Notes: generated by a model not told the origin, from the letters alone. A DNA stretch of 64,000 bases from the human T2T-CHM13v2.0 reference genome, Homo sapiens (GCA_009914755.4 CP068257.2:24640001-24704000), one strand, 5' to 3'. Shown: positions 29,423 to 30,797, counted from the stretch's first letter. A program made the numbers and translations.

Positions 29423-29476
29423 GAACAATTAATGGAATTATCTCTTTGAAGAGTCCCAGACTGAGTCAAAAAACCA
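29423..29476. repeat. 54-bp direct-repeat copy 1 (gaacaattaatggaattatctctttgaagagtcccagactgagtcaaaaaacca), inserted inside the L1 3' region just before the giant microsatellite
   Basis: 52 of 54 bases are identical to 30744-30797 in the same orientation. It is not part of the L1 consensus at this position; the L1 reads gagtggataaagaaa | inserted segment | tatatata. Confidence 0.85.
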
Positions 29477-29964
29477 TATATATATACATGTATATATATA
29501 TATATGTGCATACATATATACATGTATATATATGCGCATACATATATACATGTATATATATGCGCATACATATATACATGTATATATATGCGCATACATA
29601 TATACATGTATATATATGCGCATACATATATACATGTATATATATGCGCACACATATACACACATATATGTGCACACATATACACACACGTGTGCACACA
29701 CATACACACATGTGCACACACACATGCATACATATATACACATATGTGCATACATATACACACATACGTGCATACATATACACACATATGTGCATACATA
29801 TACACACATATGTGCATACATACACACACATATGTGCATACATATATACACACATATGCGCATACATATATACACATACATATGTGCATACATATATACA
29901 CATACATATATACATATATACATATATGTATGTACGTATATATATACATTTATATATCACAGTT

Positions 29965-30010
<46 letters not shown>
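29477..30010. repeat. About 535-bp complex purine/pyrimidine-alternating microsatellite ((TA)n, (CA/TG)n, (CATA)n, with a 27-28-bp higher-order unit catgtatatatatgcgcatacatatata repeated at least 4 times), expanded from the internal tatatataca of the host L1
   Basis: Direct reading. The tract ends ... tgtgtgtgtgtgtgtgtgtgtatatatatatatatatatatg then resumes the L1 text agatggaatactactcagccatagaaagg. The ORF-track peptides of 161-242 aa in several frames (MYIYTYIHICIYVYMYVY ...) are translations of this repeat. Confidence 0.95.
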
Positions 30011-30017
<7 letters not shown>

Positions 30018-30743
30018 GAGATGGAATACTACTCAGCCATAGAAAGGAGTGAATTAACAGCATTTGCAGTGACCTGGATGAGATTGGAGACTATTATGCT
30101 AAGTGAAGTAACTCAGGAATGGAAAATCAAACATTGTATGTTTTCACTACTATGTGGGAGCTTAGCTATGAGGACACAAAAGCATAAGAATGATACAACG
30201 GACCTTGAGGACTTGGGAGGAAGGATGGGAGTGGGGCGAGATATAAAAAACTACAAATAGGGTGCAGTGTATACTGCTCAGGTGATGAGTGCACCAAAAT
30301 CTCACAAATCACCACCGAAGAATTTACTCATGTAACCAAACACCACCTATACCAAAATAACCTATGGAAAAATAAAAAATAAAAAGGAAATGAATTTGTA
30401 GCAACAGTCCAAATTAATAGCTACAACAGAAGTGTAGTTTCCAGGTAGACCAATGGATAATACATTCCTTTACTTGCAAGACAGCCTGCCTATAATGCAG
30501 AAGAAAAATGCAATAGTTGGGATAGGCTAAGTTAGCCTGCGGCAACAAGCAATTCCATAACTTTAGTGGCTCACAACGGAAAAGAGTATTTCTCGTTGGC
30601 ACTGCATATCTATCAGCTCTGTTCCACGTAGTATTCACTCAGGCTGTTGAGGCAAAAGGAAGAAACGATCATGAACTGCAGGCGCGAGGCACTAAAAGGA
30701 GTTGGAAGAAAGAATATTTGGGGAAAAGTAATATAGTGTATTA

Positions 30744-30797
30744 GAACAATTAATGGAATTATCTCTCTGAAGAGTCCCAGGCTGAGTCAAAAAACCA
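30744..30797. repeat. 54-bp direct-repeat copy 2 (gaacaattaatggaattatctctctgaagagtcccaggctgagtcaaaaaacca) in unique DNA about 350 bp downstream of the L1 tail
   Basis: See copy 1 at 29423-29476. Confidence 0.85.

What the first reader, a model, noticed from the sequence alone, without database searches (positions are those of the whole stretch)
29423..30797. 54-bp direct repeats (52 of 54 identical) bracket the microsatellite plus L1 3' end; one copy is an insertion inside the L1
gaacaattaatggaattatctct(t/c)tgaagagtcccag(a/g)ctgagtcaaaaaacca occurs at 29423-29476, wedged between L1 bases that are adjacent in the consensus, and again at 30744-30797 in unique flanking DNA. Both copies are in the same orientation, about 1.3 kb apart. 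54 bp is far too long for an L1 or Alu TSD. The copy inside the L1 looks like a templated insertion copied from the nearby downstream site, as happens in polymerase-theta or MMBIR-type break repair. Its position right beside a Z-DNA/cruciform-prone tract fits a break-prone site repaired by template switching. Alternatively the whole 1.3-kb segment between the copies could be the product of a duplicative rearrangement.
Basis: seen in the sequence. Interest (0 to 1): 0.5.

Follow-up and report, generated by a model that had tools for sequence, protein, structure and literature searches.

The report
Copied 54-bp patch inside old L1
A 54-base piece of an ancient SINE was copied from 1.3 kb downstream and pasted into an old LINE-1, at the edge of a long structure-prone microsatellite; it is a neat but ordinary scar of error-prone DNA repair or replication and has no apparent function.

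Summary
The 54-mer occurs exactly twice in the window (29423-29476 and 30744-30797), same strand, 52/54 identical, 1321 bp apart, with none expected by chance. The upstream copy and the 542-bp array beside it interrupt the C-terminal coding region of a decayed, nearly full-length LINE-1. Four other L1 copies in the window and solved ORF2p sequences read straight through that point. The downstream copy is not unique DNA: it lies in the head of a MIR/MIR3-type SINE, and the SINE alignment runs across the repeat's right boundary. So the downstream copy is the donor and the L1-internal copy is derived. There is no TSD, no untemplated poly(A) and no second copy of the intervening DNA. Junctions show 1-nt (G) and 2-nt (CA) overlaps, plus 14/23 homeology on the priming side. 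The array is 98.9% alternating purine/pyrimidine (473-nt unbroken run) and strongly self-complementary. Best reading: one microhomology-primed template switch (MMBIR/FoSTeS- or SDSA-like) at a stalled fork or break at the array edge. A single 54-nt tract copied from 1.3 kb away fits typical Pol theta scars poorly. Primate orthologues could not be obtained. This is a new example of a known kind; interest is low.

The parts
24835..29422 (+). 5' and central part of the host LINE-1 (decayed, nearly full length). The start coordinate is approximate: it is the lowest position with L1 homology seen. The part ends at ...GGATAAAGAAACTATTCTGTTG.
   Evidence: Pfam: L1 ORF1 RBD/dsRBD-like domains at 25342-25701 (E = 1e-23) and RVT_1 at 27223-27987. 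L1-to-L1 blastn back to 24835. ORF2p residues 1099-~1224. Many stops and frameshifts.
29401..29423 (+). Priming-side homeology patch: the last 23 nt of L1 sequence before the insert are 14/23 identical (16/24 with gaps) to the donor's left flank at 30722-30744. The 3'-terminal G (29423) is shared by L1, insert and donor.
   Evidence: (D6), 22, 40: P about 0.001-0.003 against random window 22/23-mers. The right flanks match only 6/22, which is chance.
29423..29476 (+). Derived copy of the 54-mer, i.e. the templated insertion. The net inserted tract is about 51 nt (29424-29474) if G 29423 and CA 29475-29476 are counted as junction overlaps with the L1.
29477..30018 (.). Complex TA/CA/TG/GC array grown from the L1's own TACATATACAC motif. 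It contains a 28-bp unit repeated 6.2 times at 96% identity (29497-29669).
   Evidence: TRF. 98.9% alternating purine/pyrimidine steps with a longest unbroken run of 473 nt, against a 45% window background. ssDNA MFE -128 kcal/mol, z = -2.45 against dinucleotide shuffles. Near-perfect palindromes with 0 nt between arms (I1, I5, I8). Absent from 4 other L1 copies.
30019..30385 (+). 3' end of the same LINE-1: ORF2 C-terminus from MEYYSAI..., the 3' UTR and an A-rich tail ending at 30385.
30386..30743 (.). 358-bp spacer between the L1 tail and the donor copy; single-copy in the window. Its last ~20-40 nt may already belong to the SINE head.
   Evidence: blastn finds only the self-hit. SINE alignment start at 30703-30727.
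30744..30797 (+). Donor (template) copy of the 54-mer, in its native context inside the SINE head.
30727..30946 (+). MIR-type (best match MIR3-like) ancient SINE that contains the donor. The left limit is approximate (30703-30727).
   Evidence: Recalled MIR3 consensus: nhmmer E = 4.9e-8 for 30784-30946 and Smith-Waterman score 39 against 10.6 +/- 1.7 in shuffles. Recalled MIR consensus: E = 0.006 for 30778-30896; the same query finds 4 other copies in the window at E between 1e-10 and 1e-5. Leftward extension has P about 0.01-0.015.

Best explanation
The 54-mer at 29423-29476 is a mutational scar: a one-off templated insertion with no function. A DNA 3' end arose at the left edge of the structure-prone array inside an old LINE-1, either from a stalled or collapsed replication fork or from a double-strand break. 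It left its own template and annealed 1.3 kb downstream, on the same chromatid or the sister, to the head of a MIR-type SINE. That annealing was held by a terminal G and a 23-nt patch of imperfect homology. The end was extended by one uninterrupted tract of about 51-54 nt, dissociated after ...CAAAAAACCA, and re-annealed through CA to the start of the array, where normal synthesis or joining resumed. The result is a direct-orientation copy, no loss of the intervening 1.3 kb, and at most a ~2-nt loss of L1 sequence. This is a template switch of the MMBIR/FoSTeS type or, equivalently, an aborted SDSA-like round of break repair. Tract length and template distance point to a reasonably processive polymerase rather than typical Pol theta synthesis. 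SHOWN: the two copies; the direction of copying (SINE to L1); absence of the insert from other L1s and from ORF2p; absence of TSD, poly(A) or any larger duplication; the short junction overlaps; the extreme non-B character of the array. INFERRED: that the array caused the break or stall; the order of the switches; the polymerase; and the date. Two differences in 54 sites give roughly 18 Myr at 1e-9 per site per year, 95% interval about 2-67 Myr, well after the L1 inserted.
For: Two copies only, 52/54 identical, same strand, 1321 bp apart, 0 expected by chance. The upstream copy plus array interrupts L1 ORF2 between ...WIKK(M/L) and MEYY...; ORF2p matches at E = 3e-75 with about 3 codons missing. 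Four in-window L1 copies read through the site. The downstream copy is embedded in a MIR/MIR3 SINE whose alignment crosses 30797|30798 (E = 0.006, E = 4.9e-8, z about 17) and extends left over the whole 54-mer (10-15 of 1000 shuffles reach the score). Spacer and right flank are single-copy. Junction overlaps are G and CA; the left flank is 14/23 identical (P about 0.001) and the right flank 6/22. This asymmetric 'priming-side' similarity is what PMC6902434 describes for MMBIR join-points. The array is 98.9% alternating purine/pyrimidine with a 473-nt unbroken run and folds at -128 kcal/mol. Germline templated insertions of this general kind are documented as inherited human variants (PMC8421209). 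The host L1 carries 3 in-frame stops and at least 2 frameshifts in 174 ORF2 codons. That is far more decay than about 1.9% per-lineage divergence predicts (about 0.4 stops expected; my calculation), so the copy post-dates the L1. In the permissive-gap alignment to the recalled MIR consensus, each copy keeps the consensus base at one of the two differing sites, suggesting one change per copy after the event (weak).
Against: No ancestral (pre-insertion) allele or outgroup orthologue could be obtained, so insertion rather than any other history rests on in-window logic only. The junction overlaps are short (1 and 2 nt) and depend on an inferred pre-insertion L1 sequence. The left homeology (59% ungapped, 67% gapped) falls just under the 70% cut-off of PMC6902434. 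The 11 nt left of the insert (CTATTCTGTTG) fit neither the L1 read-through nor the donor flank well. The causal role of the array is circumstantial, and the array may have expanded after the insertion. The SINE assignment uses consensus sequences recalled from memory; a profile built only from window MIR copies did not reach the donor. The event lies outside the operational MMB-TI signature used by MMBSearch (inverted template, within 100 bp; PMC8421209).
Confidence: 0.75

Rival explanations
1. Pol theta-mediated end joining (TMEJ). A two-ended break at the array edge was resected by more than 1.4 kb. The left 3' tail annealed to the exposed complementary strand of the right end at the SINE, Pol theta copied 54 nt, the synthesis aborted, and the end re-annealed at CA near the break.
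For: A direct-orientation templated insertion copied from the other side of the break, with short junction overlaps, is the geometry described for direct-repeat TINS (PMC7165422). Junction overlaps are G and CA. The insert is AT-rich.
Against: PMC7165422 describes the scars as insertions of 3-30 bp identical to flanking DNA. Primary synthesis tracts are 'rarely more than 10 bp', longer insertions are composites of several rounds, and microhomology search is confined to about 15 nt from the ends. Here there is one uninterrupted 54-nt tract from a template 1.27-1.32 kb away.
Confidence: 0.12
2. Two-step rearrangement. A tandem duplication of about 1.32 kb (array start to end of the 54-mer) was followed by a deletion that removed the first copy from the array start up to the 54-mer.
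For: It gives the same final structure. Arrays of this kind are deletion-prone.
Against: It needs two independent events whose breakpoints coincide exactly with the L1/array boundary. No second copy of the 358-bp spacer, the L1 3' end or the right flank exists in the window.
Confidence: 0.05
3. RNA-templated patch (class 2 templated-sequence insertion). A fragment of a local transcript covering the SINE was reverse-transcribed and captured at a double-strand break by end joining.
For: Class 2 TSIPs have no TSD, no poly(A) and show microhomology (PMC5110952), as seen here. The orientation is the same as the donor's.
Against: TSIPs are defined by donors in distant genomic regions (PMC5110952), whereas here the donor is 1.3 kb away in cis, which favours direct DNA templating. 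Nothing shows that this region is transcribed. The priming-side homeology is expected for DNA strand annealing, not for fragment capture.
Confidence: 0.05
4. Artefact or coincidence: a mis-assembly at a hard-to-assemble 540-bp array, or two independent members of a repeat family that happen to be similar.
For: Long TA/CA arrays are classic mis-assembly sites. The donor does belong to a multi-copy family (MIR).
Against: The two copies differ by two transitions, so they are not the same reads placed twice. The upstream copy is only a 54-nt internal SINE fragment with no other SINE sequence around it. Other MIR copies in the window resemble the 54-mer no better than random DNA, and ancient SINE copies are far too diverged to give 96% by chance.
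Confidence: 0.03

Closest known systems
Templated insertions from microhomology-mediated template switching (MMBIR/FoSTeS; germline 'MMB-TI' variants, PMC8421209; microhomeology at join-points, PMC6902434)
   Same: A short stretch is copied from a nearby template that stays intact. Overlaps at both junctions are short, there is extra imperfect similarity on the priming side, the site is a structure-prone repeat, and the change is inherited as a neutral germline variant.
   Different: The operational MMB-TI signature is an inverted template within 100 bp, whereas this one is direct and 1.3 kb away. The overlaps are at the short end of the range (1-2 nt). The homeology is 67%, just under the 70% cut-off. 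There is only a simple return to the original template, with no associated copy-number change or complex rearrangement.
Pol theta templated insertions (TINS) in TMEJ (PMC7165422)
   Same: Direct-repeat insertion templated from the flank on the other side of the break; short microhomologies; AT-rich insert.
   Different: 54 nt in one tract, against 3-30 bp with primary tracts rarely above 10 bp. The template is 1.3 kb away rather than within tens of bp of the break.
Templated sequence insertion polymorphisms, class 2 (PMC5110952)
   Same: A patch with no TSD and no poly(A), end-joining-like junctions, and the donor locus retained.
   Different: TSIP donors are distant (often on other chromosomes) and thought to be RNA-derived. 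Here the donor is local and in cis, pointing to direct DNA templating.
LINE-1 / Alu target-site duplications
   Same: Short direct repeats near a retrotransposon.
   Different: The repeats do not flank the element. One is inside ORF2 and the other is 358 bp beyond the poly(A) tail. Established knowledge puts typical TSDs at about 7-20 bp.

Membership tests
Template-switch (MMBIR/FoSTeS-type) templated insertion | The inserted sequence is (near-)identical to a template elsewhere that is itself retained | tested here: met
   52/54 identity; the donor is intact in its SINE context.
Template-switch (MMBIR/FoSTeS-type) templated insertion | Microhomology (2-9 bp) or microhomeology (>=5 bp, >=70%) at the join-points (PMC6902434) | tested here: inconclusive
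   Left: 1-nt G plus 14/23 (67% gapped) homeology. Right: 2-nt CA. Both depend on an inferred pre-insertion L1 sequence.
Template-switch (MMBIR/FoSTeS-type) templated insertion | The insert is absent from the ancestral allele | not testable with these tools
   No primate or human contigs in the searchable collections. Indirect support: absent from 4 paralogous L1 copies and from ORF2p.
MMB-TI signature as implemented in MMBSearch (PMC8421209) | >=10 bp insertion, inverted copy of a template within 100 bp | tested here: not met
   The length criterion is met (54 nt), but the orientation is direct and the template is 1321 bp away.
Pol theta TMEJ templated insertion (TINS) | 3-30 bp insertion identical to immediately flanking DNA; primary tracts rarely above 10 bp (PMC7165422) | tested here: not met
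   A single 54-nt tract from a template about 1.3 kb away.
L1/Alu target-site duplication | Direct repeats immediately flank the 5' end and the poly(A) tail of one retroelement | tested here: not met
   The upstream copy lies inside ORF2. The downstream copy is 358 bp past the tail. No true TSD of the L1 was found.
Class 1 TSIP (L1-mediated, PMC5110952) | TSD >=5 bp, untemplated poly(A) with an upstream AATAAA, insertion at TTTT/A | tested here: not met
   The flanks ...CTGTTG and TATATA... are not duplicated. The A6 run near the end of the insert is templated in the donor. There is no AATAAA in the 54-mer.
Class 2 TSIP (PMC5110952) | No TSD or poly(A); end-joining-type junctions; donor in a distant region, RNA-derived | tested here: inconclusive
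   The junction features fit. The donor is local, not distant. RNA origin is not testable.
Tandem/segmental duplication | The whole segment between the breakpoints is present twice | tested here: not met
   Only the 54 nt (76 nt with the homeologous flank) are repeated. The spacer and right flank are single-copy.
LINE-1 (host element) | ORF1 and ORF2 (RT, C-terminal domain) homology, A-rich 3' tail | tested here: met
   Pfam Tnp_22_dsRBD E = 1e-23 and RVT_1 E = 1e-11. PDB ORF2p E = 3e-75. Tail ends at 30385. TSD not found.
MIR-type SINE (donor context) | Significant similarity to the MIR/MIR3 consensus over the core and head | tested here: met
   nhmmer E = 4.9e-8 (MIR3) and 0.006 (MIR). Caveat: both consensus sequences were recalled from memory. 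The MIR one is validated by 4 other window hits. The head part alone is weak (67 of 1000 shuffles reach its score; collinear extension P about 0.01). Dfam/RepeatMasker was not available.
Known structured RNA / tRNA gene (for the 54-mer) | Rfam or ARAGORN match, or stable fold | tested here: not met
   No Rfam hit on either 54-mer other than a chance-level match at E = 0.52. No tRNA. The fold is no better than shuffles.

The most novel reading that the evidence does not exclude
The event may be a natural, datable germline example of a long-tract (about 54 nt), long-distance (1.3 kb), direct-orientation template switch triggered by a 473-nt perfectly alternating purine/pyrimidine (Z-DNA/cruciform-prone) array that itself grew out of a conserved L1 ORF2 motif (TACATATACAC). 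If so, this L1 motif could be a recurrent genome-wide seed of both microsatellite birth and MMBIR-type scars. Current short-range detectors (template within 100 bp, inverted) would miss such scars.
Probability: 0.3. Interest if true: 0.4.

Novelty: new member of a known kind. Interest (0 to 1): 0.2.

Why it matters
By itself it matters little: it is a neutral scar in a dead retrotransposon. It is a clean textbook case in which the direction of copying can be proved from repeat context alone, because the donor lies inside a SINE and the copy inside an L1 ORF. It also shows that germline templated insertions can use templates more than 1 kb away in direct orientation. The MMB-TI detector described in PMC8421209 searches only within 100 bp of the insertion and for inverted templates, so it would not report this class. 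A genome-wide survey of L1 copies whose TACATATACAC motif has expanded could measure how often such arrays attract template switches.

Tried and rejected
1. Orthologues or alleles. A spurious 74-aa ORF from the spacer gave no hit in the 5.8-billion-protein collection. Exact look-ups of two ORFs spanning the array and the 54-mer found nothing. A 29-nt pattern from the 54-mer had no match in metagenome, genome or viral contigs. A 20-nt pattern gave 7 hits, all chance, with about 25% identity outside the core.

2. TSD of the host L1. No match of 10 nt or more, and no 12-16-mer with 1-3 mismatches other than A-rich noise, between the post-tail sequence and 18-29 kb.

3. Memory-independent SINE test. 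An HMM built from 4 window MIR copies recovers only those copies and does not reach the donor. Pairwise blastn of the donor region against the window gives nothing better than E = 0.04.

4. Further templated pieces. k-mers of at least 8 nt from the odd junction segment (29405-29426) occur nearby only at chance level, and none lies next to the donor. A multi-template event is therefore not supported.

5. ATGGAAT is shared by the insert (offset 10-16) and the L1 just right of the array (30021-30027). I rejected it as mechanistically relevant because neither junction lies there.

6. L1 reverse transcriptase template switching at the time of L1 integration. Rejected because the pair differs at only 2/54 sites while the L1 is heavily decayed.

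7. The 54-mer as an RNA gene or structured element. Rejected.

8. The gapped-identity comparison of the 54-mer with other MIR heads turned out uninformative as a percentage, because random DNA scores the same. I use it only to say that other copies do not exceed background.

Full report
**1. Observation**

The 54-mer GAACAATTAATGGAATTATCTCT(T/C)TGAAGAGTCCCAG(A/G)CTGAGTCAAAAAACCA is present at 29423-29476 and 30744-30797. Both copies are on the + strand, 1321 bp apart and 52/54 identical.

- Allowing 3 mismatches, the 64-kb window holds exactly these two matches, with 0.00 expected from shuffles.
- Sensitive blastn finds no third copy.
- Both differences are transitions.

**2. What lies around the upstream copy**

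The sequence left of 29423 and right of 30018 is one LINE-1.

- Pfam finds L1 ORF1 domains at 25342-25701 and reverse transcriptase at 27223-27987.
- The conceptual translation of the two halves joined at 29422|30019 aligns to solved human LINE-1 ORF2p, residues 1099-1274, at E = 3e-75.
- At the join, the window reads WIKKL..FC|MEYYSAI against ORF2p [17 protein letters not shown]. Only about three codons (HIY) are unaccounted for.
- Four other L1 copies in the window (about 15.1 kb +, 15.9 kb -, 46.5 kb -, 59.1 kb -) read ...GGATAAAGAAAATGTGGTACATATACAC.ATGGAATACTA... straight through, with no 54-mer and no array.

So the 54-mer is not L1 sequence. The 542-bp array (29477-30018) is an expansion of the L1's own TACATATACAC motif, and the 54-mer sits exactly between the L1's ...TGT(T)GG and the first CATATATA of the array.

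The L1 is old. Its longest + strand ORF is 119 aa. The 174 C-terminal ORF2 codons contain 3 stops and need at least 2 frameshifts. No TSD of the L1 could be recognised.

**3. What lies around the downstream copy**

It is not unique DNA. I wrote out a MIR3 consensus from memory, as a lead. It matches 30784-30946 on the + strand with nhmmer E = 4.9e-8 (consensus positions 44-208) and a Smith-Waterman score of 39 against 10.6 +/- 1.7 for shuffles.

A recalled MIR consensus matches 30778-30896 at E = 0.006. The same query finds four other MIR copies in the window at E between 1e-10 and 1e-5, which shows that the recalled sequence is a real interspersed family.

Both alignments cross the right end of the repeat (30797|30798) without a break: GAGTCAAAAAACC-A|GGTTCCACTTC against GAGTCAGGAGACCTG|GGTTCTAGTCC.

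With permissive gap costs the alignment extends left to consensus position 3-4 (window 30703-30727), covering the whole 54-mer. Only 10-15 of 1000 shuffles of the left part reach that score.

The downstream copy is therefore in its native context, the tRNA-like head of an ancient SINE. The upstream copy is an isolated 54-nt internal SINE fragment inside an L1 ORF. This fixes the direction of copying as downstream SINE to L1.

A profile built only from window MIR copies did not reach the donor, so the SINE label still leans on recalled consensus sequences. Dfam/RepeatMasker should confirm it.

**4. Does membership of a multi-copy family explain the repeat?**

No. The other MIR copies in the window give no blastn hit to the 54-mer better than chance. 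In a gapped comparison they score like random DNA (37-43 matches against 39.6 +/- 2.9). The pair is 52/54 identical without gaps.

**5. What it is not**

- It is not a TSD. One copy is inside ORF2 and the other is 358 bp beyond the A-rich tail.
- It is not an L1-mediated (class 1) templated-sequence insertion. There is no flanking duplication and no AATAAA, and the A6 run is templated (criteria from PMC5110952).
- It is not a segmental duplication. The 358-bp spacer and the right flank have no second copy.
- It is not a known RNA. Rfam gives only sub-threshold, compositional miRNA-like hits inside the array and nothing on the 54-mers. There is no tRNA, and the fold is no better than shuffles.

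**6. Junctions**

I take the L1 read-through (TGTGG-TACA-TATA...) as the pre-insertion state.

- *Left crossover.* It lies at G 29423, which L1 and donor share. The next bases, G(T/A)ACA, agree 4/5.
- *Right crossover.* It lies at CA 29475-29476, shared by the donor's ...ACCA and the L1's TACATATA.
- *Net change.* About 51 nt inserted and about 2 nt (TA) lost.
- *Flank similarity.* The 23 nt to the left are 14/23 identical between the two sites (P about 0.001 against random window pairs; 16/24 with gaps). The right flanks match 6/22, which is chance.

PMC6902434 reports this kind of one-sided similarity for MMBIR join-points, although 67% is just below its 70% cut-off.

The last 11 nt of L1 before the insert (CTATTCTGTTG) fit neither the L1 read-through nor the donor flank well. 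They remain unexplained: either chance, or error-prone synthesis at the switch.

**7. The neighbouring array**

Of its dinucleotide steps, 98.9% alternate purine/pyrimidine, and the longest unbroken run is 473 nt. The window background is 45%.

It contains near-perfect palindromes with no spacer and a 28-bp unit repeated 6.2 times at 96% identity. As single-stranded DNA it folds at -128 kcal/mol, z = -2.45 even against dinucleotide-preserving shuffles.

The array may have grown after the insertion.

**8. Mechanism**

The simplest history is one event. A 3' end at the left edge of the array, from a stalled fork or a break, annealed 1.3 kb downstream. It was extended by about 51-54 nt in one tract, and returned via CA.

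This is a template switch of the MMBIR/FoSTeS kind or, equivalently, an aborted SDSA-like round. Typical Pol theta scars are 3-30 bp, local, and built from primary tracts rarely above 10 bp (PMC7165422), so Pol theta is the less likely enzyme.

The event also lies outside the MMBSearch signature (inverted, within 100 bp; PMC8421209), although that paper documents inherited germline templated insertions of the same general nature. An RNA-derived class 2 patch (PMC5110952) and a duplication-plus-deletion history cannot be excluded, but both are less parsimonious.

**9. Date**

Two differences in 54 sites give 3.7% divergence (Poisson 95% interval 0.45-13.4%). That is about 18 Myr at 1e-9 per site per year, with an interval of about 2-67 Myr.

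In the permissive-gap alignment to the recalled MIR consensus, each copy retains the consensus base at one of the two sites. That suggests one substitution per copy since the event (weak).

The L1's load of stops and frameshifts is much larger than about 1.9% per-lineage divergence would produce: about 0.4 stops are expected in 174 codons and 3 are observed (my calculation). So the insertion is much younger than the L1, and it was not made by the L1's own reverse transcriptase at integration.

**10. What could not be done**

No primate or human contigs of this locus are reachable with the available collections. The decisive comparison, an ancestral L1 without the insert and with the donor present, is still to be made.

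**11. Verdict**

The main correction is that the donor lies in a MIR-type SINE, which is also what proves the direction of copying. It is a new example of a known class of mutational scar, with no sign of function. Interest is low (0.2).

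Noticed in passing
window 29497-29669: Inside the array, a 28-bp unit (TATATATATGCGCATACATATATACATG) is repeated 6.2 times at 96% identity. This looks like a young minisatellite-like expansion within an older, more degenerate TA/CA array.
   Followed up: partly
window 29966-30018 versus 29475-29528: The right end of the array, (TG)n(TA)n, is the reverse complement of the CA-rich body (inverted repeats I24/I25). 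The array's own history may therefore include a hairpin or inversion-type switch.
   Followed up: no
window 29475-30040: The array gives about 140 sub-threshold Rfam hits to miRNA families built on similar repeats (mir-297, mir-466, mir-3149, mir-5014), at 50-60 bits against gathering scores of 85-101. These are compositional hits, not evidence of a miRNA gene.
   Followed up: partly
window 29412-29422: The 11 nt of L1 just left of the insert (CTATTCTGTTG) match neither the L1 read-through (AATGTGGTACA) nor the donor's flank (ATAGTGTATTA, 6/11). This may be mutational clutter at the switch point.
   Followed up: partly
window 55642-59301: Two L1 pieces in opposite orientation abut at about 58.66-58.72 kb (55642-58659 on +, 58723-59301 on -). 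Both contain the same ~96-nt L1 segment. This could be an inversion at integration or two nested insertions.
   Followed up: no
window 19420-19731 and 20101-20411: An inverted pair of ~310-bp repeats, 88% identical and about 370 bp apart. By eye they look like Alus, but I did not verify that. Such pairs can form hairpins.
   Followed up: no
window 641-777(+), 9279-9465(+), 9775-9888(-), 22098-22226(-): Four other MIR-family SINE copies, detected with the recalled MIR consensus at E between 1e-10 and 1e-5.
   Followed up: partly
window 31030-31880: Beyond the SINE lies what looks by eye like the 3' end of an older L1M-type element (about 31030-31400). It is followed by an Alu starting near 31582 (two Alu monomer-like repeats, D7).
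   Followed up: no
window 20432-21241: An L1 fragment in reverse orientation, 61% identical to 25795-26624 of the host L1. It is probably an unrelated older L1 rather than a 5' inversion of the host element.
   Followed up: no
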